Source: a virus. Taken from it: a stretch of DNA of 64,000 nucleotides. The notes below the pieces were generated by a model that was not told the DNA's origin, searched no databases, and saw only the letters and a program-made list of their open reading frames with translations. The translations under genes were made by a program, and so were the position numbers. Below are positions 2,894-37,600 of this stretch, one piece after another; the stretch's first letter is position 1; each line of letters opens with the position of its first letter. The DNA lies in IMG/VR virus record IMGVR_UViG_3300020445_000983, positions 1-64,000 of that record; one strand, 5' to 3'.

Positions 2894-2901
2894 TATTTAT
2901 A
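2894..2901 (-). promoter_or_regulatory. T4-type late promoter TATAAATA overlapping the upstream stop codon
   Basis: Exact consensus. Confidence 0.7.
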
Positions 2902-16621: not shown

Positions 16622-16628
16622 TATTTAG
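16622..16628 (-). promoter_or_regulatory. Late promoter variant CTAAATA
   Basis: TAAATA core overlapping the stop of the giant gene, just upstream of the next ATG. Confidence 0.55.
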
Positions 16629-19600
16629 TTGTCATCAAAGATTTGATCAGGTGTGAAGTTATCAACGGTTGATGCACCGACGTTAACTGTGAGGACTGCG
16701 GCAGTAGATAGAACTGGAATTGCGCCAGGTGATGTAATACCAACACGATATTCATCTCCACCATCACCCTGTTGAGTAGATGTAATACTGATTGAATCAG
16801 TTGTTGCTCCAGCAACGTTGAGCCAGCTATCGGTACCGTATTCCTTCTTCTGCCACTGGTAGGAGAGGGTAGAACCGTTAGAGGAAGTAGCAATTATTAC
16901 GAATGCAGCACTCTGACCTTGGTTAACTGTTACACTAACAGGTGGGGTACTAATGGTAATAAATTGCTCGTCAGGAGTTGAACCGCCCTCAGGATCTTGC
17001 CAGCCTGGATCGTAGATGTCTATACCACCGTTTAGAGCAGCACCTGTAGGTCCGAGGAAACTATCTTCAACAGTTGTTTCTACTTGAACGATTGGTTGTA
17101 CATAACCTTGACCTGCGTTCTTAACATCAATACGTGCGAGACCAACTAATGCTTTAATCTTAGCTCCGAATCCAGAGGAAGAAATAACATCAACGTTTGG
17201 ACGTGTACTATAACCATCACCAGATCCAGTAAGAACTGCCTTGGTAACACGACCCTTCTCTATAGTTGCGAGAGCGTCTGCGTTACGTCCCTTAACTGCA
17301 CCAGAGTATTCGAAGGTAATTAGTGAGTTAGAAGACTCAATTAGAGCAACAGTTCTGTTCTCTTCCTCACCCTCAATTATTAGATCGTCACCAGCTTCAA
17401 TTGGAGGTACGACTGTAGCAGCGATAACGTCAACGTCAGAACCAATGTAGGAGAATGCAACGAATGTTGAACCTGCACGAGGTACTTCAGAGAAGATTAT
17501 ACGTGAACCAACGATCTCAAAACCGATACCTGGTTCCTGTATAACACCGTTCAACTGACAAATAATGTTGTTCTCAGGTCTAATCGTGTTGGACTGTACA
17601 CCTTCAGTCAATGTTAGTGAGTAGAATACTCCACCTAACTTCAAGTTGAAGGAGTTACGTAATGAATCAAAGTCGAATCCAATATCATCTAACTGTCTTA
17701 ACTTACCAACGTATACACCGTGGAAACTAGATCCAGCAGCAGGTGCTTCAGTGAACTGAACGTTATCAGAGAATGCAGTGAAGGAGTAATCAGCGCCAGG
17801 TGGCTGCAAGATTCCGTTCACGAAGATCATCATATGACCTGCGGGATCTGGGAAGTATGGGGTACCGTTATTCTCAGTTAACTTGAAGTTCATCTGAGTT
17901 CCATCAAATCCTCTGAAGTATCTTCTAACACGACCACGTAAAGTTCTAGCAGCAGAACAAGCACCTTGGAATCCATTGTCACCAATGATTTGTGCGTTCT
18001 TCTGGAAGCTTCCCTCACTATCACCTAGGTGTAAGGTTGCCTTAGTACCTAACTGAGTAATCTTCTCGATTCTACCGTATGCTGTGGTAGAAGTAACCTG
18101 AGCAGCAGCAATAAGAGTCCAAACACTTGGGAAGTTAGAACCTTCAGGTAACTTACCTAAAGTGTACTGTGAGTTACTTGCGATATCAGAAACAGTAACA
18201 CCCTCAGGAGCGTTGGTACTATTACATACGAAGAGGTAATTATTGTCCTCATTCTTCTCAGTTATAGTAACTGTCCAGTTAGGAGATAGAACAGCACCAC
18301 CAGAGAAGACCTGACATACATCACCAACCTCAATACTATCTGTTACACCAGTATCAGTAATGAATGCAGAGTAAGTTAACCTTGTAATATCTCTTGCGTG
18401 TACATACTCACCGAAGTTTGGTAGAGAAGCGAACGCTTCAATCTCAATAATCTGATCAGTAACTGAACCGTAGATAACATCGTTAGGAGCAAACTCACCA
18501 GTAATTGTATCGATATCGAATGTAACACGACCTCTTTGGTTATCAAGTAGTGCACCATTGTTATTTCTAACGATCAATGCATTTGCCTTAGAACCAGAAT
18601 CAGCAGAGTAAATCTTATCATTAGCTAAGAACTCACCCTGACGGAAGTTAACTAGGATTCTACTATGTGTAGAAACTACAGTTGCGGTACCACCAGATGT
18701 TACACCTTCTAGTACGTCTGCTGCATTAAATGTACCTACAGGGTTAACAACCTTGATGTAAGTAGCATTATCTGTAGCAAGAACAGATGCAGTATTACCT
18801 GTTGCACCTTGTACAACAACTGCTTCACCATTCTCCAACTTAGGAGATGATGAGAAGGTGTTACACTCAATGTAAGTAACAACGTAGTAAATGTCTGCGT
18901 GATTATCTGCAATTCTTACAATCTCACCAGTTGCACCAGTGGTTGTACCGTAACATACGTCAGCGAGGTTAATACCACCGTTAATAGGAGTAGGAACATC
19001 ACGTGAACCGTAAGTTGTTGGTATTCTATCAATTCCATCAACCCTTGTTAACGCAAGACTATGAGTCTCACCAGTTTGACCAGGATTAATATAAACTGCT
19101 TCACCATCAATATACTCGCATAAGAATACTCTATCTGCAGTAGTATGTGGGTGTACATAATAGTTTTCTCTATCAAGTTCTGCTATCATTGCACCCAATG
19201 CAATATACTTGACTTGATCGTAAGCTTCAAACCTATGTCCAACAATATCAATACCACCGTTAGATACACTGTTACCAGGATCAAAAGTATGTGATACGTA
19301 AGTTGTTGGGTAAGTTGATCTGTTTAAAGCAACATCTATTAAGTGACATAACGAATGGAGTTTATCTACAGCAGTCTTTGAAACACGAAGTTCTTTGTCA
19401 GTATATGCAGGGGTATTCTCAAAAGCACCAGGATCTATAGCATCTTGCTCTAGAACATTGATCATATATCTCTTGATAGCTTCGAAGTGGAAGATAACAC
19501 GAGTTCTGAATAGTTCAGGGAATGCAATGAAGGTACCTTCAGAGTCAAACCAGCTACTTACTAATCCAAGTGTCTTAGCATTACCAGCAGTAATAAAGTC

Positions 19601-22600
19601 GTAAATGAATGCCTTAAGAATATCATCGGAGAATGTATTGACTCCAGCGTACCCAGGATAGGTACCTAAAGTCTCTGACATAGACTCATCTCTGATATAA
19701 ACATTGTTATACATCAACAGACGTGCTGCCTGTTTACCCATTTCAGTACCACCACCAAGTGTATCAAGGATGATATTGAATAATGTGTGTGATGCAGAGG
19801 TAACGTTATAGCAGGTACCACCAATATAATTTGTGTTGGTAGTAGTAGGAGCAGTTCTAGTTACAGTACTAAGATGACTTGAGTTACCTTGTGCTGCCTG
19901 ATCCACAGTGTTGATAACTATATCCCACAGGGTATTAACTGCAGATTGCTCTGTCTGGCAGAATGAAGTACCATCATAGGTTATTGATATGTCTCTACGT
20001 ACAGCACGATCACCAGTAGTAGGCCACTCACCTGGGATGGTCTTCGTAATACCAGCCATATAAGAGTTAGGATTAGAAGCACCAGAACCAAATAGATTGA
20101 TAGGAATACCCATCAATGTTGTAATACCAGAAGCTTCATTACTACATCTAGTACCACCAGCATTAGCATAAGTTGTAATAGAGTTGTTATTAGAACTAAT
20201 GAATGTGTGTGAATAATTACCACCAGTAATTACAGATGCCTTAGTTACACAATGTGCTTCAGCAGATATGAATGTATGTGCGTCTGTGTTTGTGGAAGGA
20301 GCAGATGCAAGAACCTGTACACTAATATTATCCTGATCAACAACAGTGATAGGCATAAATGAGTTGCTAGCTGGGTCAGTAGAACGAGGATATGACTTGT
20401 TAACCTGTCCTCCTCCACCAAATCCACAACTGAATACTAGTGAATTGTCAGCAATCTTAATATAATCACCAGCAACCATTCCGTGACCATTAATGGTCAA
20501 TGTCATTACACCTGTTGTTGGGTTATATGCAGCATCTCTAGGTGTCTTGGTTACATTTGCTTCAAACTCGTGTGAGTAAGCACCACCAGAACGTACTGGG
20601 AATTTCTCAGCTCTTATAAACTTATGAGTATAAGATCCACCAGCAATGATTGCATTAGCTGTTGCACTCTGCCAAGTATGTGGAGATACGTTAGAAGATG
20701 TACCAACGTTAATTTGTATAGTACCATCAGGTCTTGTAATACCACCAGAGGTAGCAGATACAAATGTATGAGGTGTCTTATCTAAGTTTGCACGACCAAC
20801 AAATACATCAAACTGATGAGTAGACACATTAGAAAGTGGTAACCACTCATTATGTGAAGGATCTGTTGCTCTTGGATATGCGTGATCTGTAGCATAATCA
20901 TCTTTACCACAACTGAATGTGATAGATCCGTCTGCCATCTTGATCTTATCATTTGCCTTCTCAATACCATCTGTTGTAGCAGATACGAATGTATGAGTTG
21001 TGGTATTAGAGATTGGACCTTGACCGAAGAAGTAACCTACATTGACATCAAATTCATCGGTACCATTCTGATTCATTACAGTCAACCACTTATTACTTGC
21101 AGGGTCGGTTGTACGTGGATAAGAATGATTACCACCTGCCTGTGTGCAAGTAAAGGTTAATCCATTATCAGCAATCTTAATCTTGTCACCATTAACGAAT
21201 CCGTGGTTATTGGTTGTCTTAATAGTAAGAATACCAGTAGTAGGATTGTAAGAGGTACCTGTAGTTGCAGTCTTCTTAGTAGTAGCACTGAATCCGTGAC
21301 TTGGGATGGTGAGAGTCATCACACCAGTCTCAGGTCTGTAGATAGCGTTAGTTAATGTGTGTGAACTAGTTCCAACATTAGTAATTCTTTGTCCTTTCTC
21401 GAAGGATGGGTCTCTCTTCTGCTTAACACAGTTAGTAGCAGCACCAACATAAGTGTGATTGTAAATACCACCACCCTTAATAGCTCCTCTACTAATACTA
21501 TGAGCAACACCAGATTTGAATGTGTGTACTGTCTGGTTGGTAGAAGGAATAACATCTAGGACGTTAATATCAAATCCACTGGATGTTACGTTCTGAACCT
21601 TAATCCAGTTACCACTAACAGGGTCGTGTGCTCTAGGATATGTGTGATCAGTCTGATGACCATCCTGTGCACAAGTAAATGTAAGTGCATCGTTATCAAT
21701 TCTAATATGATCTCCATTCTTAACCCAGTGGTTACCAACAGTCAGTGTCATAAATCCTGTTGTTGGATTGTACACTGCATTGGTTGGAGTCATCTTCTCA
21801 TATCCAGGTTGGAATGTATGAGTATAACCAGCACCACCAGCTACAACTGCACCAGATACAGCACTCTGGAATACGTGAGTTGTTACGTTTGAAGAAGGTG
21901 CTTCCTTCAGTACATTAATAACAATCTGATTATTAGTAGGAACATCAACAATAGGAATTGATGTATCGTACATTGAGTCACGCTTTTGCTTAATAGCGTT
22001 AGTTGCACCAGATATAAAGATGTGTGGAGTTGTATTAGACTGAGGTACAATCTTATTAACTACAACCTTAAAGGTGTCAGATGTTACATCAAATACCTGT
22101 ATCCACTTACCTGCAAATGGGTCAGAAGGACGTGGATAAGTATGGTTTGTTTGATGATTATCTTGAGCACAAGTAAATGTTAATGCATTGTTATCAAACT
22201 TAACCCAGTCTCCATTACCCATTGCGTGAGCAGCAGATGTCTTAATCTGTAGTACACCTGTCTGTGGGTTATGGTAAGTACCACCAGTGATTACTGCACC
22301 AGCATCAGCACTTGACCAAGTGTGAGTATAGTTACCACCAGTAATTACTGCACCAGCAGTTGCTGAAATAAAGTTGTGAGTTGTAAGGTCAGTAATAGGA
22401 CCTTGACCACCGTTAACATTAATAGTAATTGTAGTATCAGTTGCTGCAATAATTGGTAGAGCAGTTCTGTATGCGTAGTCTTCACCATCTCCAGTAGCAG
22501 CACCAGAAGCACGTGGATAAGTCTTCTGAGTCTGATAGTTATTCAACTGATAGTCACAAGTGAATGTCAATGAATCATCAGCAAGTCTAATACTATCTCT

Positions 22601-25600
22601 GTTAGCAGTTAAAGTATGAGCACCAATAGTAAGTACTAAATTACCACCTTGAGGATCGTAAACTGCATTAGAAACGTTGTAACTTACAATAGGTGAAGTA
22701 CCAACGAATACTGTTACTGTATTACCAGCCTTAGCAATAATTTCATACTCGTGACCGTAAGTTGGATCAGTAGAACGTGGATAAGACTTAATAGTACTAT
22801 TACCATCCATCTCACAAGTAAACTTGATAGCCTCTTCATTAATTCTGATCCTATCTCCAATTGCTAAGGAGTTAGATCCAATATCAAGTACCAAGTTACC
22901 AGTTGTGGCATCATAAGAACCATCAGTAGGAGTGAAGGAAGTACCAACAACTGCAGTATGTGAATCCTCTAAGTTTCTAGGATATGAGTGATCTGAATTC
23001 TGTCCATCCTCATCACAACGGAATGTCAATGCATTAGGAAGTAACTTAATGCTATCAACTTCCTTCATAATACCGTTAGTGAGACCACTTACGAATGTAT
23101 GGGCAGTAGTGTTAGTAGAAGGTATAGCAGGTAGAACTTGAACTTCAAAACTATTTGATAATACATTATGAACCTGCATCCACTCACCGTGTACCCTATC
23201 TGTAGGTCTTGGGTAAGCGTGATTGGTTTGATGACTGTCCTTAGCACAAGTAAATGTTACTGCATAATCATCCATTTTAATTCTGTCACCTGCAACCAAA
23301 CCGTGTGTAACTGCAGTTTGAATCTTCATTACACCTGTAGTTGGGTCGTAAGTAGTGCCAGAAGATGCTGTAATTCTTGTACCACCAACTAAACCGTGTA
23401 CACCACCAAGAGTAAGAGTCATATCACCCGTTGTAGGATCATATGCTGCATTAGTTACATCGTGTGAAACTGTAGGAGTTGACCCAACGTTCACAGTGAT
23501 CGTACTATCAGTCTTAGCAATGATAGGTACTCTTGTGTTATGAACAGGATCAGTAGGACGTGGATATGAGTGTACACTATAGTGATCATCCATTGAGCAA
23601 GTAAATGCTAAGGAATGATCTCCAATCCATACACTATCACCAACTTCCCAATCGTGAGCACCAATGGTCATTTCTAAGTAACCATTAGAGGGATTAAACG
23701 TAGCCGCTGACGGATCGAAAATTCTAGTAGGTGTTTTACCAACGAAGATATCGAATCCATTTGTACTTACATTCTGAATCTGAATCCATCTGTCTGCGAT
23801 AGGATCATCAGCACGAGGATAAGGATGGTTAGTAGCGTGACCGTCCATATCACAAGTAAATGTGATACATTCTTGGTTTAACTTAACCCAGTCACCTGTA
23901 CCCATTCCGTGATTGGTAATGTTAAGACTTAATATACCTGTCTCACCATCATAAGAAGCACCAGTTGGTGTATGAGTTAATAAAGCAGCACGAGGATAAG
24001 CGTGATCCGTTTGGTAGTTATCCATACCACAACGGAATACTAATGAATCAGGAGCAACTCTAATGTTGTCACCTTCATTTAACCAATGGTTACCAAGGGT
24101 TAACTGCATTACACCTGTGAGGGGAGTAAAGACTCCAGTGCTCGGAGTGTAATTTACTGTAGGAGTTGAACCAACGTTAACAGTTACAGTACCTGTCTGT
24201 CTCTTAAGTCCATTAGCTGCGAATGCCTGATATGTATGTGTTCCTGTGTAAGAAGATATACCAACATCAACAGTGAATGTATTTGTATCAGCAGCTGCAA
24301 CTTCTAACCATTCTCCAGAAGCAGGGTCAGTAGGACGAGGATATGTATGGTCACTACCGTAACTATCCTTAGCACATCTGAATGTTATAGCATTATCTTC
24401 GAATCTTACATAATCACCAGCAACAGTAATACCATTAGTGGTAGCACCATAGAATCTATGACTTGTAGTATTAGAAGATGTACCAACATTAACTTCAAAC
24501 TTATCTTGAGAAGCGTTAGTAACAACTAACCAGTTACCACTAGCAGGGTCTGATGCTCTTGGATATTGGTGATCGGTAGAGTACTGGTCTTGTGAACATC
24601 TGAATGTGATACCAGCATCTTGAATCTTAATACTTTGACCGTTCTGAAGACCGTGATTCTTAATGAAGATCTCCATTACACCACTAGTAGTGGTGAATCT
24701 TGCACCCTCAGGTGTCATATGAGACTTAGTTTTAAAGTCGTGTCCATTTAAGGTACAAACTAAGTGACCATTTGAAGGATTATATGTTGCATCAGTTATA
24801 CTATGCTGTGACTCAGATACATCTTTAATTACTAATGCTTCACCTGCAGATGGATCAGTAGCTCTAGGATAAGTATGCTCACTATTGTGATCATCCATAT
24901 CACAGGTATAGATCAATGAATCATTTGCAATCTTGAGGGTGGTACCTTCCTTAAGATGGTGAGTACCAACAGTTAATGTTAAATCACCTGTAGCAGCATC
25001 ATAAGTAGAATTTTGTACATTATAATGATTCTCTGGAGTAGTACCAACGTTGACAGTAACAGATCCGTTCTGTAGTTCTACACCGTGATCAGCAGCACTA
25101 ACAAATATATGATCATAATTACCACCAGTAATAACAGCACCTGGAGTTGCAGATACAAATGTATGCTGTGTCTCATTGGTAGATGGTATACGTCCTTCAG
25201 CAAGAACCTTAATACTAATAGTAGATAGTGTGGTACCGATTATTTCAAGAGGATAATCATATGCGATATCCTTCTTCCAAGTGATACCATTGGTAGATGA
25301 TGAAACATATGTATGATCGTAGTTACCACCAGCCTTAATAGCACCAGAGGTAGCAGAAACAAATATATGTGGTGTGATATTAGAAGCAATACCAACGTTA
25401 AGAGTTATTGTATTATCTTTTCTTATAATTCCGTTAGCTGTTCCAGAAACGAATGTATGAGCAGTTACGTTTGTGGAAGGAATGTTGTCTAGAACCTGAA
25501 CTTGGAATGTTGTGTTAGTTACATTAGATACCTGTATCCACTCACCGTTAATTGGGTCAGAAAGACGAGGATAAGAATGATTACCACCACCTTGAGTACA

Positions 25601-28600
25601 AGTAAAGGTTACTGAATCAGTTCTGAACTTGACGTAATCACCATCAACCATACCGTGATAACCACTGGTTGTAATGGACATAATACCTGTATTAGGATCA
25701 TATGTTGTACCAGATACAGCAGTTAATGGAGTACCTTCATAAACAACATCAACTGATTGATCGAATGCTCTATCTTGCTTAGAACTTAATGAACCAGCAA
25801 CAGCAGATACAAATGCGTGAGTATAGTCACCACCAGTCTGTACAGCGTTAGCAGTAGCAGAAACGAATGTATGAGCAGTAGTATTAGTAGAAGGAATCGA
25901 GTTAAGAACCTGTACACTGATTGTCGTTGCAGTTACAGCAGTGATTGGACAAGCAGTATCATAGAATGGGTCAGTAGCACGAGGATATGTATGGTTAGTC
26001 TGATGATCGTCCTCTGCACAAGTGAATGTTAATCCGTTTGCAGCAAACTTAATGCTATCACCAATAATATGGTTATGAGCACCAATGGTCATCTCCATAA
26101 TACCTGTAGTAGGATTATAGTTAATACCAGTTGGTTGATAGTTTACTATAGGTGAAGTACCTACATTTACATCAAATGTTGTAGAACCTACGTTAGAAAT
26201 CTCAAGATACTTACCACTAACAGGGTCAGTAGATCTTGGATATGTCTTATTAGCTGTACCACCATCCATCGTACAAGTCATTGTGATGGCACCATCAGCA
26301 AACTTGACGTAATCTCCTGCTAATAAGCTGTGAGCAGCAGTAGTTGTAACAGATAAGACACCAGTTGTTGCTGTATAGGAAGCAGTCTGAATATCGTGTG
26401 TATTAATCTGATTTCTAGGATATGGGTGTAGAGTCTGATGACTATCCTGATTACAAGTAAATGTTAATCCACCTTCCTCAATCTTAACGTTATCACCCTC
26501 TGTCAAATGGTGTGGTCCAATTGTAAGCTTCAATTCACCTGTTGTAGGCTCATAAGCAGCATCAGTTGGAGTAAATGGTACTATAGGTGAAGTACCAACA
26601 TTAACTTTAAACTGATCTGTACCCACCCAAGTAATTGGTAACCAAGCACCAGATGCAGGGTCAGATGATCTTGGATATGCGTGATCAGTTGCGTGACCAT
26701 CCATAGCACAAGAGAAGGTCATTGAGTTATCAGCGAACTTAACGTGATCGCCTTTAACGAATGTGTGACCAGGTACCCATACGGTCATTAGACCAGTAGC
26801 AGCATCATAGTCACCACCAGTAGCAGTATGTTGTGTTGTAGTAGTTCTAGGATAGGAGTGATTAGTTTGGTTATCGTCCTCTTCACAAGTAAATGTGACA
26901 GCGTTGGGTAGTAAACGAATCTTCGCTCCAGAATTTAAACTATGAGATCCTATAGTAAGAATCATAGTACCCGTAGTTGGGTTGTATGATGCATTACTTA
27001 CTGCATAGTTAGAGATAGGAGTTGATCCTACGTCAATAGTAAATGAATTATGAGTTACATTAGTAGCAGTTAACCAAGTACCAGATGCATCATCAGTTGA
27101 TCTTGGATAAGAATGTAAGGTATAGTTACTATCCATACCACAACTGAATACAAGAGAATTATCAATAAGTCTTACTTTGTCACCATTAGCGAATCCGTGA
27201 TCAGGAACAGTAACAGTCAAACGACCATTAACAGGATTATAATCAGCGTGAGTAGCTGTATGGGACGTAGCACCAATACTTACAATATCTAATGCTTGTT
27301 GTGAAGCAGGGTCAGTTGCTCTTGGATAAGAGTGAATAGTACGATAGTTATCTTGTGAACATCTGTATAGTAATGAATGATCTGAGATGTTTAGAGTTGT
27401 ACCTGTTTTCAACTTATGGGATCCAACATCTAATGTTAGAAGACCTGTAGCAGGATCATAGGTAGAATTAGAAACACTGAATGGTACTGTTTCAGTAGGT
27501 CCAACGTTAACCTTGAAGTTATTAGCATCAATTACCTGTGTAACTGGTAGTATTGCTGTAGATGCAGGGTCACTAGCACGAGGATATGCGTGAGTAGTTT
27601 GATGTTGGTCTTGACTACAAGTAAAGATTAATGAATTGGTAGCAATTCTAATAGTATCGTTAGTAGACAAGTTATGCTGAGGTACATTGATTATCAAATC
27701 ACCTGTAGCAGGATCATAGGTAGCACCACTAGGAGTATACTGTACACTAGCAGTTTGTTGATCGATAGTAATTGTCTGATCGTAATCAGCATCACCTTCT
27801 GTATAACCGTTCTTAGTAATAAGTAACTGTCTAACTACCTCAATAGCAATGTCTCTTGCTTGCTCAAAGATGTACTTAACCTCTGCAGATTGACCAGATA
27901 CGTGCTGTACAGCATTAGCATCGGTAACATAAAGTTCAGTTGCATATAAAGTCTTATTATTACCACCGTGCTTAAGGTTGAATGCCATTGCTTCAAGCAT
28001 ATCAACAACGTCATCAACACAAGACTGATAACCATATCCAGCAAATGCTAGTGAAGGATACTGTGAAACACCACGTCCAACAGCAGTGGTAGCAATGAAT
28101 CTTAGGTTATTAAGGATTTCATTACCAGCATCATAGAACTTGTTACCAGAAGCATTATCATAGTAATCAGGTCTGAATGTTTGCTGTCCTTGACCAGTTT
28201 GTCCCTCATCTTCGTAGGGTAGGAAACCAAATTTGTTCTTGACGGCGAGTTGTGACATATCTCTTGCTACCTTGAAGGCATAGAGAGTCTCAGCAGATTG
28301 GTCAGTAACGTGCTTCAAACCAGCAGTAGTATTAAGGTACAATGCAGAAGCATCCCACATTGAACTGTTACCACCAAAACGAAGGTCGTGAGCAATAGAT
28401 TCGAGCAAATCTACTATGTCATCTTCACAATTATGCTTACCACCTTTAACTCTAAAGTTATAATGCTGGAATGCACTAAGTTTTGTGGTTAGATCAACTG
28501 CTTCACCAGCAATTGCACGAGCATTTGTAACAAGAAGATCAGCAGCATCTAGTGCTTTATCAGTACCAGTGTATGCTTTAGGATCTTTAACGATCTGATC

Positions 28601-31600
28601 ATCACGATGAACTGCCTCATCAGACCACTGCATCTGATAATAATCAGAGAAATCAGCAGCAACATCAGCAGGGTTCTCGTTTCTAGAGATTAAGAGGTTA
28701 CTAATTGCCTTTTCAGCCAACATTCTGGCAAACTCGATAGCATCGAGCATAGGAAGTAACTCATCTTCAACGTGATTGATATTATCTTGATTATCAATAT
28801 AGTAATCAATCTGAGCATTTGTCTGATTGTTACCACCAGTTAGCAAGTCACCAGAAATAGCAGGTAAAATATGATCCCTAAGGTCTCTTACACACTTATT
28901 TCTATCAGGGATTTGTAGCTTCTGATCCTGACTGAATCCAACAGTAATGTTATATTTGTTTTCGATATGGTAAACTGCTTCATCAGCAATTACCTTTCTG
29001 TTAAAGTATATTAAATCAGCACCATCTCTGAATCTTTGTCCTGTAGGACCGAGAAGATCTAATAGATCAGAAATCAGATTATTAATAAAATCTTGTACAG
29101 GTTGTGATGCAGGAGTTGCGAAGTAGTTAGGAACACGTACTCTAGTCGAATATGTACCACTTAGAGTAGTCTCATCCTGTGTAATAACATCAATACAGAG
29201 TTTTGCAACCTCACCCCAAGTGTAAATTGATTGTAGAACTTCACCATTAATATGCTGTAGAGCACCAGATCCTGTTAGATATGCTCTTGCCTGTACAACA
29301 GTGTTATAGTTACCACCATCAATAAGGTCTTGAATAATAGCAGGAATAATATACTCTCTAGTATCACGTAAACATACGTTAGTACCATAATTAGATTGTC
29401 CACCATCACCAGGGATGATAAAGTCTGGATATCTAACCTTCAGACGACCAACTGCTTCTTCAGCAATCCAGTCACGGTTCTTATAGATGATATCGGCACA
29501 ATCTCTATATTCTGCTCTACCTAAGTCAACACCCTCACATTGTAATTCTTGTTCGAATAGTTCAACGTAATCAACGTCTGCACTAGAAATAGTAGTAGCA
29601 ACCCAGTTAGCATAGATAGCACCAACTTCTAAAGGCATTGGTGCGTCACCAAGAAGTGCCCAAGAGATAGTATTATCATTAGTAGGATAAACTACGGGGG
29701 CATTAAAGGTTCCAGAGTACTGGGCGATTCCTTTGCGGATAATGATACTATCAATGTTACCTGCGAAAGTATCACCAGCATTCCAAGAAGAACCTATTCT
29801 AATAGTACTATCAGTGTAATTATTAGTATCAGTGTAGTTAGCACCAACCTGAACACCACCAACGAACAGTTTAGTTACGCTGGAGGAACGAGATAGTGCA
29901 AAATGATACCAAGTATCAGCAGCACCTATTTGAGCAGAACTGATTTGATCGGTTCCTGCAATAGCAAGCTTGATACTAGTACCAGAAAGTAAAACTTGTA
30001 CCTTGGTATCAGAAGTAGATCCACGAAGATCTATTAAAGTCTGAGTACCAGCAATTGTTGAAGGTCTAAACCAACCTTCAATTGTATAATCACCTGTACC
30101 AAAAGCGACCTTATCACTTGATGGATATAGTAAATTGGTAGCAGTTCCACTAAATGCTAGTGATCCAGTACCAGTTCTAAAGATTAATGAGTCTGCTACA
30201 ACGTTAGAGTTGGTAATCTTAGAGTTAGTGATGTATTCATCAGCTTGGAAGACACCAGTAACATCCTTAGAGTAGATCCACTTGTTACCAGCATTAGATC
30301 CAATAACATCGAATGATGCACCAGATGTTACACCCTTAACGTTATCTTCAAATACGAAGAATCCACCAGATGACTTACCCTTATAAGCGTGCTTAGTACA
30401 ACGAATTGTCTCTTCTTGGAACGCATAAGGAGGTTCAACACGAGATACATTACCAATAGACCACTGATAAGTAGCAGGATCAGCGAATGTAGGATCTTGT
30501 AGAGTATCTGTAATTATGTTAATGAAACCTGTAATTGCAGATGACTGGTTCATACATCCATTTACATATCCAGTCTTAGCAGTAGATGGAACAGTATTTG
30601 TATAAGCAGCTTCAAATGTTGCAACGGTTCCAGGAGATGCAGTAGTACCAAGTCCAGCGATAATAATATCGCACAAAGTACCAATAGTTGATGCTACACC
30701 GTTACAAACAGGTGATCCAGTATCAACAGTGATTCCACTATCAGTTACCTGAACCCAACCGTGTGAAGCATCTGCTTTAGCAACAGCAACGTTCTTCATA
30801 ATATCGAGTGCCATAGCCTTCGCTTTAGTGTAAGCGTCAACCATAGTATCAATATCACCAGTTACAGTACCGTACTGTACAATCCTATGACCAGCTTCAT
30901 AGATGAAGTTATTACCACCGTGAGCAGTGTTATATGCTAATGCTTCAATAACATCTACTATGTCACTTAAACAATGAACATCACCACCAGTTACTGTATA
31001 ACCTGGGTTCTGCTGCTTGGCATAGTATAAAGATTCGTGAGCAATATACCACTTGTTAGCAAGAAGTAAAGATCTAGCATCAGCGTGACTATTATCTACA
31101 GGATCATACTCATTAGTAACAGTAGGATCTCTATATTGCTGTATTCCAGTGTATAGTGCAGTATGTACTTCATTACGGATACACTTAATCATTAGATCAC
31201 GTGCAGCATTCATTGTATAGACAACTTGAGGTACTTCACCATCAATATGGTAAATTACTCCACTTTGAACATACTTGTATGCAGTATCCCAAACTTCAGA
31301 GTTACCATCGTACTCTAACTGCCAAGCAATAACATTACAGATATCAACGATGTCATCGTGGCAATCTTTGTCGTGGTTTAGACCAGGAACGGTAAATGAA
31401 GGATAGTAATTCTTCATAATACCTACTGCTTCCTCAGCAATGAATAAAGCATTCTTACGTAGAAGAACAGCAGCATCATAGGAACGGTTATCGTGTACCG
31501 TTCTCATTGAAGAGTTAGCAAAGTAAAGCTTCTTATTTCTAATTGAGTCGCCAATAACGAACTGGGAACCCTGTAAGTTCTTATATCTGATTTCTTGGTT

Positions 31601-34600
31601 CCTTACTTCCTCAAAGTCAAGGAAATCTTGGTTATTTGCTGTATCACTGTATAGTTCAGTTGGATTAACAACAGTTTCAGAGATATTATCAAGAATCTTA
31701 TTAGGGAAGGTAATTGAAGGTACTCTCTGGAATACTAGACCAAAGAAGAATGATGGAGGTGATAAGTCAACAGTATCAATGATTTGCTGTGTATTATCAT
31801 CTTGATAAGGTGCAATAGTAGTAATTCTTGCACATATCTTAGAACGTGCAGAATATACAATGTCATTGAACTTAAGATCAAACTCACCAGTTTCAAACTC
31901 AGAAGTACCAGATGTACGAGAAACAACTAAGTCAGTAGTTACAGTACCATCTATTAGGTTAGTTTCTTCAATAACTGCGAAATCAGGGACAGTATCAAGG
32001 TTTGTGATTGTTTCACCCTGTTCAAAGATAGTATTGCTAGTAAGTGGAGTTACAGAAGCTAAAACACCATCAAAACCAGTTGCAGAAGATAAAACATTGT
32101 CATTTGTCAAGAATGAACCTGATATATCAACAACATCAATAGAATCTACAAGTGAGTCAATTACAATAGCTGTACCTTCATTCTGAAGACTACGTACAAT
32201 CTTACCTGCAGGAGGGAAGATACCACTAGTAGAACTAAAGGTAAAACGAGTAATATTAATCTGACTGAATCCTATTTCACGGAATTTGATCCTAGAAGGT
32301 GCTTTAGGTGGTTCATCAAATACAATACTAGGTCCAGAAGTAGTAAATGATACTCCAGGAGACTGTGCAATACCATTAATCAGAATCATCATCTGATCAT
32401 CAGTTGCTGTGATTGATTCACCCTCAACAGTTAGAGGGAACTGGGTTTTAATTCCATCAAAGTCATCAGAGATATTATCAAGTTTCTTAACGATAGAAGT
32501 TAAGATTTCCTCTGAGTTAGTCAGTCTCTTCTGTCTGAACAGTACCTCAGTATTGTTGAACTGAGTGTATATTGGTTGTGCGTTAGCAAAAGAGGTAATC
32601 TTATTAATATTAGTTGCACTAAAGATATTAACTTCCTTAACTAGGTCAGAAACGACCTTTCTTCCTGAAATATCCTTACCACCAGTAAGTGCTAGTTCAC
32701 CAAACATATTGAAACCAACTGGGTGGTTAGTTTCAAGGATTGACTTCCTCCAACTATTAATAGGTGTCTGAGACTTAATAACGTAAGAGAAGTTCTGATA
32801 GAAGTAAGAGTCTTGGATCTTCTGTACAATTTCAGATGGTTTACCAACGTCATCGATAAATTGACCAGTAGTTGTTGTTAAAGCATCAATATTCAGTGTA
32901 CCCTTAGCGATTGATAGATTATCAATCAAACCAGATGCACGAGATACCTCACCAGTTACCCTCTCACCAATAGTCCAATTACCTGTATAGTTCTCAAGTT
33001 TAAGAATTCTAGGTCCAATCTGCCATCCTTGGTTCTCAGAAACATATCCTACAGCAGATGCAGTTTCAATAAAACTTCCTTGATAAACCTTTTCACCTTG
33101 TAAGAAACGAGAAGTTTCTACAACAGCTGTTGCTTTACCACCGAATACCTCGGTTAGTAGTACCTGTCTACCATCACCCTGTGTTAAGAAGGTAATGAAG
33201 CTACCAGATTCAGCATCAACAGGGGTTAGTGCGATCCTTAACTGGTCTGGTTCAAGTGAATTTGCCTCACCAGCGATAGCATAATAAGTAGTGTTCTCAC
33301 TTAAACTGATCAAACCTGCAGAAGCTGGTTTTGGTAGGATACCAATTGTAGATCCAAGGTCTTCTGCACGTAAATTAACAGCAGCACCGTTTGTGATACC
33401 GTGTGGGAAGTTAAACTGTAAATATCCTAAGTCAATGTTAACAACGTAGTTAAATTCTGATTTAAGGGTAACTATTGGTTCAGAACTGTATCCTGAGCCT
33501 GGTTCCTTAACTTGAATCTCAGAAAGACGATTATTCTTAACAATCGCTAATGCTTCAGCACCTATACCTCCACCACCTTCAATTACAACACGAGGAACGC
33601 TAGTATATCCAGAACCTGGGTCAGTTATTTTAATTTCTGTTAGAATAGCGGTATTAAATAACTGAAGGTTCACAGGGAAAGTTATTTCAGGTCTCAACGT
33701 ATAGTCGTGAGAGTACCCGAAACCAAATTCGTTGTTCTTCAGTTTCTTAATCTTACCAATGCTTAGACCTTGTAAGAATACAGATGCACCTGATCCTTCA
33801 GCAGGAATGATAACATCTAATACTCCACCAGAACCTTGTAGTAAACTACCTAATATTCCAGGAATACCATCAATATCTACAGATGCAAAGGTATATCCCT
33901 TACCAGCAGATATAAGTTCTACTCCAGTAATAACACCTTCTAGGTCACCATCATCAGCAACTGTGATGTTACATAGAGCACCTTCACCGTCTCCATCGAT
34001 AGGAACGTTGAAATAGGTACCATTTACATACTCAGTACCACCAGAAGTTATCTTAATCTTCTCAATTTCTCTGTTTGAAGCAATATCAGTAACAATTGGT
34101 AGTTTCTGATAGAATCCACCTGGGTTTACCAGTTTAATAGATGAAATAGGACCAACTGCCTTAACAGAAGTGGTAGAGTATGATGATCTTGGAATACCAA
34201 CCTCAGTGTTACCTAATGGTGCAGTTGTATTCTCTGGCTCACGAAGTAATGGGAATTTAAACTCCTTATCGTCTGGTATACTAGAAATTGTAAATATACC
34301 CTTATATGGAGTCTGAACAACGTCAATAAAGGAATCTATACCAACTGGATTATCATTAGCACTTGTTCTTGAAGGGTCAAAGTAGTAAGAAATATTAGTT
34401 ACAGCGTCTGTAACCAAGAATTTAACCAATGGAGTAGGTGAACTCTCATCAGTCATACCTGGTGTACCTTCTCTAATGATGTTTGTGAATGGATATTCTA
34501 GTTTATACTGATTATCCTTAGAGAAACTCAAGAAATATCCTGCGTTTGAAGTGTCATCAAGGTCAAATACGTACTGATGACCTCTTACAAAGAGTAATTT

Positions 34601-37600
34601 AGGATGTTTTGCGTAAATATTGACACTAGCAATCACACCTTGACTGAATACAGGGTCTTGAATCGCTGTAGATCTCAATCTATAGGTAAATTGCCTTGAA
34701 TTGAACAGTTCTTCAACAAAGAATGAACCATTATACTCATTTGTGGAGAATCCTTCGACAAATATGATCTCATTTGTTTCAAAATTGTTCTTAGTAGTAG
34801 CATTAGCAAATACTAAGTCGGTATATGTTAGTGCACCTGTAGGAATAATGTCCTTATCAAGGTTAGCAGTCAGTTTAAACTCTTTAACACCAACTAAATT
34901 ACCAAATGTTGCTATATTTCCTGTCGCATCAACACTAAATGTTAGACCAACAGCATCAGCATCGATGATATCACCCTTGATATAGGAAGAATCTTCATAA
35001 ATCTCCTCAATCTTGATGATATAGTCAGATCCAGAGAAGGTTTTCCACCTAGCAAACTGATCTAATGTACCACCACTATAGGAAGTATTGACTAAATCAA
35101 CATCAAATGATCCAGCAACTCTGGTATATACCCAGTTTACGGTACCATCAGAGACAGTTCCTACATTATGTACAGGAGCAGTAGCACCAGAAGTACCAGC
35201 ACTAGATGCTGTATAGATCTTTCCAGCGTTATATACTTCATCACTGACAGCATATACAGTATTTGTAGTCCACTGAGGAATAGTGGTTGTTACTGTAAAG
35301 TCATATGCAATGACATTGATGTCATTTCCAGTAGATTTAATTAGTTTTGCAGTATCAAATGTACCAACAATATTACCAATCTTACAATTATTAGTTCCAG
35401 CTTCAACAATGGTACCGTATGCACTAATAACATCAGCTCCACCAATTACAGAATATTGTTGTAATCTATCACCTTTAGTGAAGGTAGCATTCTGATTGAA
35501 TGTAATAGTCTTAACAGCGTCAATAGTAGTATACTTGGCATCTCTTAGGTAGAACTTAGGAATAACTGTTGTTGACATCAACAGTTTCTTACCATTTGGA
35601 GTAGGAATGGTTGCTGTTCTAGTAGCATAAGGTTCATCAGTAGAAGTGAACGTATATGAACCTTCAACGTTGTTTGAGATAACATCAGCATAATCAAGGA
35701 TCTGAATACCAGCAGGACCCAATACCCAATCATTTGATGTGGTAGCAAGGGTATTAAAGGTGAAATCGTTGATGGCAGCGGCGTTTGTTACCTGAATACC
35801 TGTCTCTACGTCATTGAGAGTAAAGGTTCCAAGTTTTGTCTGATCCTTATCAATCTTGTAAGTAAATGCGTGAGTAATCTTTGTGCTACCAACTGCCTGA
35901 GCAGGAGTGAAGTTAGCATCATATTTGGTGACAGTAGATATTGAAAGGTTATCTAACCATCCACCAACAGATGTTGTTGTAGCAGGAGTCTCTAAACCAA
36001 GAACAATTGCTTTCTTAATAGCAGTGTTAACTGTTGTACTGGTATGAGAAATCTCTTCGTTACCGTTAATATACACTTTATAAGTGTAATTACCAACACC
36101 AATGTTCTGCTTAACGTATGCTACGTGTACAAATGCTTCTGCAGCAAATCTAGTCCAGTTAGTAGTTGTAGTGGAGAAATATGTACCTGATCCAACATCT
36201 ATACTTAACTTTCCAAAGTTAGGACTTGTAGAATCACCATCTACAGACAATACAGTTGCATCACCAGTATTAGGTGTAATTTTGAATAGAGTTGGTTTGG
36301 AAGACTGTGCATTGTACTGTGACTGTCCAATAGCAATATATCCTTCAATTGTCCAATCTGTACCTTGATCAGCAGCCCAATCAATCTCTAAAGCGTTGGC
36401 AGCAGCAGTTGTTGTAACTGAACTGTTACCAAACTTGGGTTTTGCATTATCAATTGCTTCACCTGTACCTTTCCAAGCAATAGTTGAAATATCGTTATAT
36501 GTGTCATCACCACTAACATCTGTATCAAAGTTTAGGATTGCAATCTCATTTGCTTCTACTTTGTTACCAACAACTATAGTATCAGCAGAACTATCATTAG
36601 TAATAGCAATAGGATGGAATCCAATACCAGAAGTCTCCTTAACAGAAGCTGCTGTTATAACATTATCGGTATTCCAAGAAACCTTCCAAGAAATAATACG
36701 GTTATCATTGAATGCATATCTAACATAAGCACCAACATCAATGTTACCAAAGATGTCAAATTTAACTCCAGTAGATTGAATTTCTTCAAATGCTGTATTT
36801 GGAGCAAATAATTTCTGTGCAGCAGGTGTTTGTAAGTTAGATGAAAGGAATTTCCAATATGCAACACCAGCAGTCTTACCAGTAGCTACAGTAGTAGCAG
36901 TAGCTGTAATGTATACAGTACCATAATCATCTACAGTTAATTTTGGATTAGAGTACCTATAGGCAGTATTGGAGAATTTACGAGTCCAATTAACCTCAAT
37001 AGTGGCACTATCATAGTATGTTTCACCAAATATGATATTACCAGAACCAGTAGGATCCTCAATACCAACAAACAATACCTTATTATTACCAATAAATTTA
37101 ATATCATTTAACTGCTCATCACCAGCAGCAGAAGCAATCTTACGTTTTTCTTCTAAAGCACCATCAGTATTCAACAAACCAATCCACATATCACTTGGAT
37201 TTGGAGAGTTTGTATCAGTAGTACCAGCAATATATAAGTATCCGTTAGAATCTAAATCAACTGAAGAAATATAGTCTCTACGAGTAGATCCAGATATACC
37301 AGCAAGTTCTCTCTGCCACTTAATTACAGCAGTTGGATTGTTGTTTGCATCAAATCCTGACTCAAACTTAGCAACAACAAGATCTGGGTTGTAAGCAAGG
37401 TTTGCTGTATGAGGAATAGTTTCACCAACAACGTATATTGTATGAGGATTAGTATTAGCAACGTGAATACTATTAAATACACACCTCTTATCACCTGCAG
37501 CAGGTTGAATAGGTAACATTGTACGTGTCCACAGCAATCTACCATCACTGTTAAACTTAGCAATCATACCTGCTGAATCACCAGTAGAATCATCTGCTTC

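What the first reader, a model, noticed from the sequence alone, without database searches (positions are those of the whole stretch)
20171..27755. Recursively nested (matryoshka) domain tree: 24 domains inserted inside one another in a giant virion protein
Seen: the ~105-aa domain has ordered parts A (YDP.TG.L.LT...H), B (GD.I...LTFTC..D.H...H.YPR), C (DP....L.I..V), D (F.VNVG) and E (HTFVSA..G.I). The copies are not a plain tandem array: a copy stops partway, a new copy begins, and the missing parts return later in last-in-first-out order. Units 1-7 open in succession; unit 8 is complete; GGDYTHAFVSA closes 7; KQDRAFDQSVDVV resumes 6 exactly after its YPR; then DNTITLNVG..HIFVSA, GGNYDHTYVSS, KKDIAYD..HTFVSA and GGNYDHIFVSA close 6, 5, 4 and 3. 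My manual parse balances fully: 1[2[3[4[5[6[7[8],9]]]],10[11[12],13[14[15[16[17,18[19[20]]],21]],22[23]]],24]], maximum depth 10. At least six insertion points are used (start of A, after A, after YPR, between C and D, after VNVG, inside E). Inference: the chain folds as a branched, dendrimer-like appendage in which the backbone runs out and back. Single domain insertions are well known, but I do not know a description of self-insertion at this depth; novelty is unverified.
Basis: partly seen in the sequence, partly recalled or inferred. Interest (0 to 1): 0.93.

Follow-up and report, generated by a model that had tools for sequence, protein, structure and literature searches.

The report
Self-nested beta-barrel tree in cyanophage gp7
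A giant baseplate protein of a marine cyanobacterial virus carries 24 copies of one small beta-barrel domain inserted into each other's loops up to nine deep, a branched "protein tree" described so far mainly for cyanobacterial RNA polymerase, where the published record is six levels.

Summary
Residues 5159-7681 of an 8,862-aa ORF (window 16625-43213, minus strand, in the T4 gp7 position) contain 24 copies of a ~104-aa domain. Nine are contiguous and 15 are split into 2-3 pieces. A strict stack parse of 44 profile-derived pieces balances with no violation: 1[2[3[4[5[6[7[8]9]]]]10[11[12]13[14[15[16[17,18[19]20]]21]22[23]]]]24]. None of 200,000 shuffles parses.

I correct three details. Depth is 9, not 10. 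Four insertion sites are used, not six. Units 20, 21 and 24 sit elsewhere in the tree.

- All 15 spliced units give one full-length profile hit.
- Residue couplings learned from 490 intact domains tie each piece to its bracket partner, not its sequence neighbour.
- AlphaFold2 models are confident: 22[23] has pLDDT 91.2 and pTM 0.82; 5[6[7[8]9]] has 87.4 and 0.66.
- In the second model, split units 7 and 6 superpose on solved single barrels across their inserts.
- Mis-assembly is excluded.
- Relatives carry different trees built from the same sites.

The closest known case is recursive hybrid-motif insertion in cyanobacterial RNA polymerase Si3, at six levels. I found no paper describing this in a virion protein. 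This scan has already reported the same architecture in gp7 of other cyanophage genomes.

The parts
16625..43213 (-). Giant ORF, 8,862 aa, in the T4 gp7 (baseplate wedge) position
   Evidence: PHROG 701/2885 on its N-terminus; neighbours are gp6-like, PAAR, and gp8/9/10/11-like. Relative P0121 is named baseplate wedge initiator of P-SSM2.
20171..27739 (-). Nested array, aa 5159-7681: 24 barrel units in 44 pieces
27497..27739 (-). Unit 1 (depth 1), parts A-D
   Evidence: profile 2-81, 89.7 bits
20171..20224 (-). Unit 1, closing E strand, 2,424 aa after its part D
   Evidence: spliced unit 109.4 bits, profile 2-102
27266..27478 (-). Unit 2 (depth 2), parts A-C
   Evidence: profile 3-73
25025..25066 (-). 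Unit 2, part D
   Evidence: weak hit, profile 73-81, score -0.5
20549..20587 (-). Unit 2, closing E
   Evidence: found only by the resumed-E profile, 8.2 bits; spliced unit 85.0 bits
27008..27262 (-). Unit 3 (depth 3), parts A-D
   Evidence: profile 2-87
25076..25126 (-). Unit 3, closing E
26837..27007 (-). Unit 4 (depth 4), parts A-B
   Evidence: profile 2-58
25127..25273 (-). Unit 4, parts C-E
   Evidence: profile 57-103
26591..26830 (-). Unit 5 (depth 5), parts A-D
   Evidence: profile 2-81; residues 1-80 of the AF2 model
25280..25330 (-). Unit 5, closing E
   Evidence: strand 506-511 in the model, block pLDDT 79-89
26408..26575 (-). Unit 6 (depth 6), parts A-B
   Evidence: profile 2-57
25733..25780 (-). 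Unit 6, part C
   Evidence: found only by the resumed-C profile, 13.6 bits
25331..25417 (-). Unit 6, parts D-E
   Evidence: profile 72-103; single barrels align over model residues 82-501
26150..26398 (-). Unit 7 (depth 7), parts A-D
   Evidence: profile 2-84
25784..25834 (-). Unit 7, closing E
   Evidence: E1 FCCH barrel aligns over model residues 141-351, Z 8.7
25835..26140 (-). Unit 8 (depth 8), intact
   Evidence: profile 2-103, 126.4 bits
25421..25720 (-). Unit 9 (depth 7), intact
24800..25024 (-). Unit 10 (depth 3), parts A-C
   Evidence: profile 2-76
24164..24196 (-). Unit 10, part D
   Evidence: profile 72-83
20597..20641 (-). Unit 10, closing E
   Evidence: resumed-E profile, 19.9 bits
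24725..24796 (-). Unit 11 (depth 4), part A
   Evidence: profile 5-28
24200..24421 (-). Unit 11, parts B-E
   Evidence: profile 27-103
24425..24718 (-). Unit 12 (depth 5), intact
23987..24151 (-). Unit 13 (depth 4), parts A-B
   Evidence: profile 2-56
21368..21424 (-). Unit 13, part C
20645..20722 (-). Unit 13, parts D-E
   Evidence: profile 74-102
23735..23974 (-). Unit 14 (depth 5), parts A-D
21425..21475 (-). Unit 14, closing E
23474..23716 (-). Unit 15 (depth 6), parts A-D
21797..21835 (-). Unit 15, closing E
23372..23464 (-). Unit 16 (depth 7), part A
   Evidence: profile 2-32
22961..23065 (-). Unit 16, part B
   Evidence: profile 26-60
21842..21982 (-). Unit 16, parts C-E
   Evidence: profile 57-102
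23063..23371 (-). Unit 17 (depth 8), intact
22697..22936 (-). Unit 18 (depth 8), parts A-D
22286..22339 (-). Unit 18, closing E
22340..22681 (-). Unit 19 (depth 9), intact; the deepest unit
   Evidence: profile 2-103; depth
21986..22282 (-). Unit 20 (depth 8), intact
21488..21793 (-). Unit 21 (depth 6), intact
21281..21361 (-). Unit 22 (depth 5), part A
   Evidence: profile 2-28; residues 1-27 of the AF2 model, block pLDDT 94-96
20732..20956 (-). Unit 22, parts B-E
   Evidence: profile 27-103
20957..21268 (-). Unit 23 (depth 6), intact
   Evidence: barrel fold, Z 8.0 to E1 FCCH
20240..20548 (-). Unit 24 (depth 2), intact

Best explanation
The C-terminal third of this cyanomyovirus gp7-like baseplate protein is a tree of 24 homologous ~100-residue closed beta-barrels. 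The fold class is that of the E1 FCCH domain and the endosialidase beta-barrel.

The barrel's first and last strands lie next to each other, so a whole copy can sit in a surface loop of another copy. Four loops accept inserts: after part A, after the YPR loop, between C and D, and after D. Inserted copies host further copies.

The chain therefore runs outward through half-finished barrels, turns at an intact barrel, and on the way back supplies the missing strands in last-in-first-out order. Every barrel ends up complete. Each has one invariant Cys and one invariant His on the last strand. For unit 1 that last strand comes about 2,400 residues after the rest of the domain.

The result is a branched appendage whose own N- and C-ends meet, so the whole tree acts as one insertion in gp7. 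Whole domains and whole sub-trees can be gained or lost at the four sites without breaking the rest. This is why relatives carry different trees.

Shown here: the balanced nesting in sequence, its conservation and purifying selection, partner-specific couplings, and the predicted fold of two sub-trees.

Inferred: the shape of the full tree; inside-out folding; location at the baseplate periphery; and a role as a multivalent host-surface binding or spacing appendage. I give that function about 40%.
For: Sequence:
- 44 pieces parse with 0 violations; 0 of 200,000 shuffles parse under each of two nulls.
- 15 of 15 spliced units give one full-length profile hit, 85-118 bits.
- G14, C42, Y53, P54, R55, D58, V79 and H91 are each present in 24 of 24 reconstituted units; H23 in 23 of 24.

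Couplings (trained on 490 intact domains outside the test set, Neff 251). Mean scores are given as bracket partners / parent-N with child-C / child-N with parent-C / intact child:
- A-type: 3.19 / 0.09 / -2.63 / 3.16.
- YPR-type: 7.18 / -4.22 / -5.17 / 8.29.
- D-type: 4.29 / 0.01 / -0.36 / 5.32.
- True partners beat parent-N with child-C in 45 of 65, 27 of 32 and 44 of 52 modules (Wilcoxon p 4e-5 to 6e-8).

Fold:
- AF2 of 22[23]: pLDDT 91.2, pTM 0.82.
- AF2 of 5[6[7[8]9]]: pLDDT 87.4, pTM 0.66, no residue below 50.
- VIA-align on that model: 9mc4_A (E1 FCCH), Z 8.7, rmsd 2.6, 79 residues aligned over model 141..351. This is split unit 7 plus its closer, skipping child unit 8.
- 21 of 50 rows span unit 7, 3 of 50 span thrice-split unit 6 (82-84..500-501), 13 sit on intact unit 8, 10 on intact unit 9, and 3 are other.
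- BFVD model M4SQ89_5 superposes on the whole 22[23] module, TM 0.86, rmsd 2.1.

Selection:
- pN/pS is 0.30 (15 synonymous / 15 non-synonymous) against L002.
- pN/pS is 0.13 (72/30) against L001 and 0.09 (26/8) against L003.

Family:
- 812 of 1,420 continuing pieces in 121 giant relatives fit last-in-first-out order, against 463 +/- 16.5 in shuffles (max 506 of 100); 11 of 121 proteins parse perfectly by machine.
- 10 IMG/VR loci carry the same 3[..] sub-tree with exactly one extra intact domain at the innermost level.
- Closing pieces are invariant in alignment A4.

Assembly:
- L002, from another metagenome, is 99.34% identical over 20,702 nt with no gap.
- Contigs of four studies tile the region. 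Single pieces of 5,409 and 5,796 nt carry 6 and 11 differing letters, and there are no indels.
Against: - No experimental structure exists. Both models are AlphaFold2 predictions, and the tools gave no coordinates or contact maps. Contacts are read indirectly, from structural alignment ranges, pTM and pLDDT.
- Unit 5's split barrel got no row of its own.
- Only two sub-trees were folded (210 and 517 aa of 2,523). Depth 9 as a folded object is an extrapolation.
- The second model rests on a 10-row alignment.
- Mutual-information couplings can reflect shared descent of the two halves rather than physical contact.
- In the D-type test, shuffled partners from other modules also scored positive (2.38 against 4.29).
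- Spliced units score lower than intact ones (mean 103 against 126 bits).
- Two closing pieces needed family-derived profiles to be detected, and part D of unit 2 scored only -0.5 bits.
- Machine parsing of relatives is perfect in only 11 of 121. I attribute this to missed short pieces but did not prove it.
- Virion location and function are inferred from synteny and family names only.
Confidence: 0.85

Rival explanations
1. Relic nesting. Insertions did happen, but the interrupted parent domains no longer fold. Only the nine intact copies are real domains, and the fragments act as linkers.
For: Spliced units score lower than intact ones (mean 103 against 126 bits). Some pieces are weakly detected.
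Against: Fragments keep every invariant residue in 24 of 24 units. The array is under purifying selection, with pN/pS 0.09-0.30. Bracket partners keep coupling scores equal to those of intact domains. Closers are invariant across relatives that are 43-60% identical. AF2 gives closers block pLDDT 75-93, and split units 6 and 7 superpose on solved barrels.
Confidence: 0.05
2. Strand exchange. The returning strands complete a neighbouring barrel rather than their bracket partner. This would give a zipped, domain-swapped rod rather than true nesting. Some elements are reported as swapped in RNA polymerase Si3.
For: [quoted passage not shown] No contact map was available here. Unit 5 had no row of its own.
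Against: In the D-type coupling test the closer goes with the parent's A-D (4.29), not the child's (-0.36). The child's own E goes with the child (5.32), not the parent (0.01). Structural alignments to single barrels run from the opener of units 7 and 6 to their own closers.
Confidence: 0.07
3. A plain tandem array of variably truncated domains, interspersed with unrelated short His-containing strands. The apparent balance would be coincidence or reader bias.
For: Short E-like pieces are low-information motifs.
Against: 0 of 200,000 shuffles parse under each of two nulls. Profile coordinates of the pieces are complementary: 5-28 with 27-103, and 2-58 with 57-103. Part counts are 24 each, and 2,423 of 2,523 residues are accounted for. 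The same holds across relatives.
Confidence: 0.02
4. Assembly artefact: repeats were mis-joined in a metagenome assembly.
For: The read-laying output lists many 'joints'.
Against: Those joints have sides of only 20-30 letters, which the tool itself flags as typical of other organisms or repeats. DNA copies are mostly 60-88% alike over at most 117 nt, with one 26-nt copy at 96%. An independent contig is collinear at 99.34% with no gap over 20.7 kb. 20 runs from 16 studies hold at least 75% of the region's words. Pieces up to 5,796 nt lie collinear with no indel.
Confidence: 0.01

Closest known systems
Si3 insertion of cyanobacterial RNA polymerase beta' (RpoC2): recursively inserted hybrid-motif (HABAS/SBHM) domains
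   Same: One small beta-rich domain is inserted into copies of itself repeatedly. Inserted copies act as hosts, and single hosts take several inserts. PMC13114784 describes eight domains in a six-level recursive architecture in Prochlorococcus rpoC2. PMC11515920 describes nine HABAS domains inserted into other HABAS domains (passages read).
   Different: The fold class differs: here it is an E1-FCCH / endosialidase-barrel-like closed barrel. The protein differs: a virion baseplate protein rather than a polymerase. Here there are 24 domains and nine levels, four regular insertion sites, and a tree that differs between close relatives. Homology to HABAS was not tested directly.
E1 ubiquitin-activating enzyme FCCH domain (PF16190; 4p22, 9mc4, 2v31)
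   Same: Best structural match of single barrels: Z 8.0-8.7, rmsd 2.5-2.9, 78-81 residues aligned. There is a weak Pfam hit at E 4.4e-7, 30.3 bits against a cut-off of 29.5. From recall, FCCH is itself an inserted domain in E1.
   Different: Sequence identity is 8-18%. No single stretch passed the Pfam threshold on its own. No catalytic context. Z near 8 is within the range the tool calls common.
Beta-barrel domain of phage endosialidases (PF12195; phi92 endosialidase 4hiz)
   Same: A phage tail-appendage barrel of similar size: Z 7.2-7.5, rmsd 2.3-2.4, 77-84 residues aligned, 17-19% identity. From recall, it is an insertion within another domain and binds sugar.
   Different: In endosialidase it is a single insertion, not self-nested. 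The Pfam model hits only a different N-terminal part of this protein, and below its cut-off (21.3 against 35 bits).
T4 gp7 baseplate wedge protein and cyanophage 'gp7: baseplate wedge initiator' annotations (S-SSM7, P-HM2, P-SSM2)
   Same: Same gene position between gp6-like and gp8/9/10/11-like genes. Relatives are so named in public records.
   Different: From recall, T4 gp7 is about 1,000 aa and has no such array. The Pfam Baseplate_wedge hit is below its cut-off (16.5 against 27 bits).
'Evolved' Dit/Tal baseplate proteins of siphophages with inserted carbohydrate-binding modules (PMC7533335; search listing and abstract only)
   Same: Extra binding modules are inserted into baseplate proteins. 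This is a functional analogy for an adhesion role.
   Different: Those are single-level insertions of unrelated modules, with no self-nesting.

Membership tests
Recursive (nested) domain-insertion architecture, A1-B1-C-B2-A2 type | A host domain's sequence is interrupted by a complete domain, and the missing host parts resume afterwards | tested here: met
   15 of 24 units are split. Profile coordinates of the pieces are complementary. 15 of 15 spliced units give one full-length hit.
Recursive (nested) domain-insertion architecture, A1-B1-C-B2-A2 type | Inserted domains are themselves hosts (recursion) | tested here: met
   The stack parse reaches depth 9 with 0 violations.
Recursive (nested) domain-insertion architecture, A1-B1-C-B2-A2 type | Interrupted hosts still fold as the domain | tested here: met
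   Met in prediction only. AF2 models have pLDDT 91.2 and 87.4. Solved single barrels align across the inserts of units 7 and 6. Couplings are partner-specific. There is no experimental structure.
HABAS / SBHM hybrid-motif family (the Si3 domains) | Sequence or fold homology to the hybrid motif | tested here: inconclusive
   No hybrid-motif entry appears among the 50 rows listed or. No Pfam hit. No direct comparison was made.
E1_FCCH (PF16190) | Pfam score above the gathering cut-off with a matched stretch | tested here: inconclusive
   Whole-protein score is 30.3 bits against a cut-off of 29.5, but 0 stretches pass alone. Fold Z is 8.0-8.7 at 8-18% identity.
End_beta_barrel (PF12195) | Pfam match on the repeated domain | tested here: not met
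   No PF12195 hit in the array segment. The only hit is at aa 964-1014, 21.3 bits against a cut-off of 35. Fold similarity only: 4hiz_A, Z 7.2-7.5.
T4-type gp7 baseplate wedge protein | Gene position within the baseplate wedge cluster | tested here: met
   Upstream is PHROG 219 baseplate wedge subunit, with a PAAR protein nearby. Downstream are PHROGs 677, 708 and 438 (wedge and connector proteins).
T4-type gp7 baseplate wedge protein | Sequence match to the wedge-subunit family above threshold | tested here: inconclusive
   PF23786 scores 16.5 bits against a cut-off of 27. PHROG 2885 'baseplate wedge subunit' scores E 1e-126, and PHROG 701 'virion structural protein' scores E 0, on aa 1-1166.
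T4-type gp7 baseplate wedge protein | Presence in the virion baseplate | not testable with these tools
   Needs proteomics or cryo-EM of this phage.

The most novel reading that the evidence does not exclude
Cyanomyovirus gp7 proteins grow a genetically programmable 'protein tree'. One metal-stapled barrel is inserted into itself at four fixed loops, to at least nine levels here. Whole branches are swapped in and out between relatives. This gives a rigid, branched, multivalent appendage on the baseplate. Its barrels must fold from the inside out, because the outermost one is completed only after about 2,400 further residues have been made. This would be the deepest natural domain nesting yet described, and a new way for a virus to diversify a host-contact organ.
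Probability: 0.6. Interest if true: 0.85.

Novelty: new variant of a known kind. Interest (0 to 1): 0.75.

Why it matters
Domain insertion is usually one level deep. A 2026 survey of 2.7 million classified domains gives six levels, in cyanobacterial RNA polymerase, as its most complex case (PMC13114784, passages read).

A nine-level, 24-domain self-nest in an unrelated fold and in a virus particle shows that recursion is a more general way to build large proteins.

It raises a sharp folding question: the outer barrels cannot close until thousands of residues later.

It also offers a natural set of differently branched trees, in 121 giant relatives and 81 IMG/VR loci, for studying how such architectures evolve.

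For phage biology, it points to an unexplored, highly variable baseplate appendage in some of the most abundant viruses in the ocean. This very sequence is present in runs from 16 marine studies.

Tried and rejected
- **Ungapped scoring matrices** built from 9 copies found B in 24 of 24 units but only 18 C and 15 D parts. I dropped them for profile HMMs.

- **First stack parsers** failed because short pieces were missed or merged, and one missed piece cascades. I fixed this with a gap-restricted second pass and profiles of resumed pieces. The fully automatic run still leaves 1 violation in P0001, because its closer of unit 2 ends at profile position 92, below the threshold of 94. The clean parse uses a piece table that I compiled.

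- **PDB search by sequence** with the 9-copy profile found only LptA at E 0.052, which is not significant.

- **Collinear relatives by piece signature.** This search found none for sub-trees of six or more units. It found three (P0007, P0008, P0032) for the five-unit sub-tree. The tblastn 'full-length' hits were mostly not collinear.

- **VIA-align on the 22[23] model.** All 50 listed rows landed on the intact child (25-138), so it said nothing about the parent.

- **Joints in read laying** have sides of 20-30 letters. I treat them as cross-matches of related domains, not rearrangements.

- **Literature.** Searches for a description of this architecture in cyanophage or phage virion proteins found none. 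The library lacks most subscription journals, and supplements were not consulted.

Full report
**What is there.** The finding lies inside one ORF, window 16625..43213 on the minus strand, 8,862 aa. Its neighbours are T4-type baseplate genes. Upstream are a PHROG 219 baseplate wedge subunit and a PAAR protein. Downstream are PHROGs 677, 708 and 438, which are wedge and connector proteins. Its N-terminus matches PHROG 701 and PHROG 2885. Relatives are named 'gp7: baseplate wedge initiator' in S-SSM7, P-HM2 and P-SSM2. So this is a greatly enlarged gp7-position protein of a marine T4-like cyanophage. The repeat is found in 309 phage records, all cyanophage or marine. It occurs in only 701 of 1.84 billion representative proteins at E <= 0.001.

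**Checking the observation.** All 24 'YPR' motifs of the ORF lie between aa 5210 and 7608. Nine copies are uninterrupted and align over about 105 columns. A profile built from them hits the array as fragments whose profile coordinates are complementary: 4-26 then 26-104; 3-31, 25-58, then 57-103. A stronger profile from 474 intact copies of 121 relatives, a second pass restricted to the gaps, and profiles of 'resumed' E and C pieces from relatives placed every remaining stretch. With the resulting 44 pieces, a strict last-in-first-out parser gives 1[2[3[4[5[6[7[8]9]]]]10[11[12]13[14[15[16[17,18[19]20]]21]22[23]]]]24]. That is 24 units, depth 9, no violation and nothing left open. 0 of 200,000 shuffles of the continuing pieces parse, and 0 of 200,000 shuffles of all pieces parse. 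2,423 of 2,523 residues are covered.

Depth is 9, not 10. Units 20, 21 and 24 hang from 16, 14 and 1. There are four break zones, used 3, 4, 4 and 9 times, not six. Two pieces (C of unit 6 and E of unit 2) needed the family-derived profiles. Part D of unit 2 is a weak hit.

**Are split units still domains?** When spliced by coordinates inside a script, 15 of 15 split units give a single profile hit spanning positions 2-5 to 95-103. Scores are 85-118 bits and lengths 94-113 aa. The nine intact units score 99-142 bits. Across the 24 reconstituted units, G14, C42, Y53, P54, R55, D58, V79 and H91 are present in 24 of 24, and H23 in 23 of 24. In 15 units the His91 sits on a distant closing piece.

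**Selection.** The array is under purifying selection. pN/pS is 0.30 against a 99.3% relative (15 synonymous, 15 non-synonymous). It is 0.13 (72/30) and 0.09 (26/8) against two 95.6% relatives.

**Partner test.** I learned residue-pair log-odds from 490 intact domains that are not part of any test module (Neff 251). I then scored the 30 most coupled column pairs that cross each break, in simple parent[child] modules from relatives and loci. In the table, "true > mismatch" counts modules where bracket partners beat parent-N with child-C.

| Type | Modules after 90% dedupe | Bracket partners | Parent-N + child-C | Child-N + parent-C | Intact child | Shuffled partners | True > mismatch |
|---|---|---|---|---|---|---|---|
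| A | 65 | 3.19 | 0.09 | -2.63 | 3.16 | -1.05 | 45 of 65 (p 4e-5) |
| YPR | 32 | 7.18 | -4.22 | -5.17 | 8.29 | -2.75 | 27 of 32 |
| D | 52 | 4.29 | 0.01 | -0.36 | 5.32 | 2.38 | 44 of 52 |

So each piece belongs with its bracket partner and not with its sequence neighbour. The top coupled pairs include columns 4 with 100 and 101, and 25 with 103, which fits adjacent chain ends in the fold. Caveat: such couplings can also come from common descent of the two halves.

**Predicted structure, first model.** Module 22[23] (aa 7285-7494) was folded with a collinear 26-row alignment of homologous A-type modules. It gave pLDDT 91.2 and pTM 0.82, with the 27-residue parent hairpin at block pLDDT 94-96. 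Its intact child matches the following:
- E1 FCCH (4p22_B): Z 8.0, rmsd 2.9, 79 aligned.
- phi92 endosialidase barrel (4hiz_A): Z 7.5, rmsd 2.4, 84 aligned, 19% identity.
- FAD-binding and EF-Tu-domain-2-like barrels.

A BFVD model of another cyanophage protein superposes on the whole two-domain module, with TM 0.86 and rmsd 2.1.

**Predicted structure, second model.** Sub-tree 5[6[7[8]9]] (aa 5462-5978) was folded with a 10-row alignment. It gave pLDDT 87.4 and pTM 0.66, with no residue under 50. Every closing piece is a strand with block pLDDT 75-93. Searching that model against 48,161 solved chains gave 50 listed rows:
- 21 align a single barrel to model residues 138-143..351-358. This is unit 7's A-D plus its closer, jumping over child 8. 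The best is 9mc4_A: Z 8.7, rmsd 2.6, 79 aligned.
- 3 align to 82-84..500-501, which is unit 6 in its three pieces (Z 5.4-5.7).
- 13 align to intact unit 8, 10 to intact unit 9, and 3 span other ranges.

Unit 5 got no row of its own. No coordinates were available, so contacts are inferred from these ranges.

**Not an artefact.** An IMG/VR contig from another metagenome is 99.34% identical over 20,702 nt with no gap, covering the whole array. DNA copies are mostly 60-88% alike over at most 117 nt, with one 26-nt copy at 96%. 20 runs from 16 studies hold at least 75% of the region's words. Contigs of four studies tile all 30 bins. Single pieces of 5,409 and 5,796 nt carry 6 and 11 differing letters, and there are no indels. 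The listed joints have sides of only 20-30 letters.

**Relatives.** In 121 giant relatives (4,875-7,974 aa), 530 of 1,917 profile hits are intact. Fragment ends cluster at the same break zones plus one in mid-B. By machine, 812 of 1,420 continuing pieces obey last-in-first-out order, against 463 +/- 16.5 in 100 shuffles (max 506). 11 of 121 proteins parse perfectly. In 81 IMG/VR loci many clean deep sub-trees occur. Ten loci carry the counterpart of 3[4[5[6[7[8]9]]]] with exactly one extra intact domain inside unit 7. Others replace unit 9 by a whole sub-tree. P0007, P0008 and P0032 have the five-unit sub-tree fully collinear at about 46% identity. Trees therefore change by gain or loss of whole domains or branches at fixed sites, while the closers stay in register.

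**Mechanism.** A barrel whose ends meet can be placed in a loop of another copy. Repetition gives a tree, and the chain goes out and back. Each child is held by two chain crossings, which fits the high pTM. The whole array begins and ends in unit 1, so it is itself one insert in gp7.

I infer three further points, none of them shown:
- Folding proceeds inside-out.
- The invariant Cys, the two His and the frequent His51 may form a metal site that ties parts A, B and E together.
- The tree is a peripheral baseplate appendage for multivalent contact with the host surface.

**Comparison and novelty.** Recursive self-insertion is published for the Si3 region of cyanobacterial RNA polymerase beta'. 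PMC11515920 describes nine HABAS domains inserted into each other, some exchanging strands. PMC13114784 describes eight domains in six levels and calls this its most complex case among 2.7 million domains. I read passages of both. The present case uses another fold class, sits in a virion protein, is deeper (nine levels, 24 domains), and varies between relatives. Six searches found no paper describing it in phage proteins. The library lacks most subscription journals. Earlier agents of this scan reported the same architecture in gp7 of other cyanophage genomes, at 18-27 copies and 7-12 levels. That agrees with what I tested here, but it is not independent evidence.

**Verdict.** This is a real, family-wide, recursively nested domain tree. 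It is a new variant of a known kind. Confidence is 0.85 for the nested fold and about 0.4 for the proposed function.

Noticed in passing
window 27764-27808 (aa 5136-5150): Just before unit 1 there is a stretch resembling a 'resumed part C' (4.5 bits with the resumed-C profile). The same kind of orphan piece precedes the first unit in many relatives, shown as '?' in the parses.
   Followed up: no
window about 19325-31480 (aa about 3900-5150 and 7700-7960): Helical repeats with a shared Cys/Asp and 'GGN' signature flank the array on both sides. Pfam gives a Phycobilisome-like hit at aa 4571-4622.
   Followed up: no
each of the 24 units, e.g. window 25835-26140: Cys42 and His91 are present in 24 of 24 units, His23 in 23 of 24, and His51 in 20 of 24 (Lys in the other 4). 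This may be a metal site joining parts A, B and E. Its geometry could not be checked without coordinates.
   Followed up: partly
loci L022, L038, L028, L030, L055, L057, L052, L031, L033, L049: The counterpart of sub-tree 3[..] has exactly one extra intact domain inside unit 7. L044/L066/L051 and L043/L045 carry a whole sub-tree where this phage has unit 9.
   Followed up: partly
relatives P0045, P0091 and six modules in IMG/VR loci: A fifth insertion site in the middle of part B (profile positions 43-50) is used in relatives but not in this protein.
   Followed up: no
window 2897-10090 and 46650-50426: Two more large structural genes (2,397 and 1,258 aa) flank the baseplate cluster. The 1,258-aa one matches PHROG 22792 and major-head-like and wedge-like families.
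   Followed up: no
window about 39000-42300 (aa about 320-600 and 1130-1330): The N-terminal third of the giant protein has its own short repeats with a 'GG.GY...P.V.I' signature, seen by eye in the translation. It also has a YHYH domain at aa 1393-1540.
   Followed up: no
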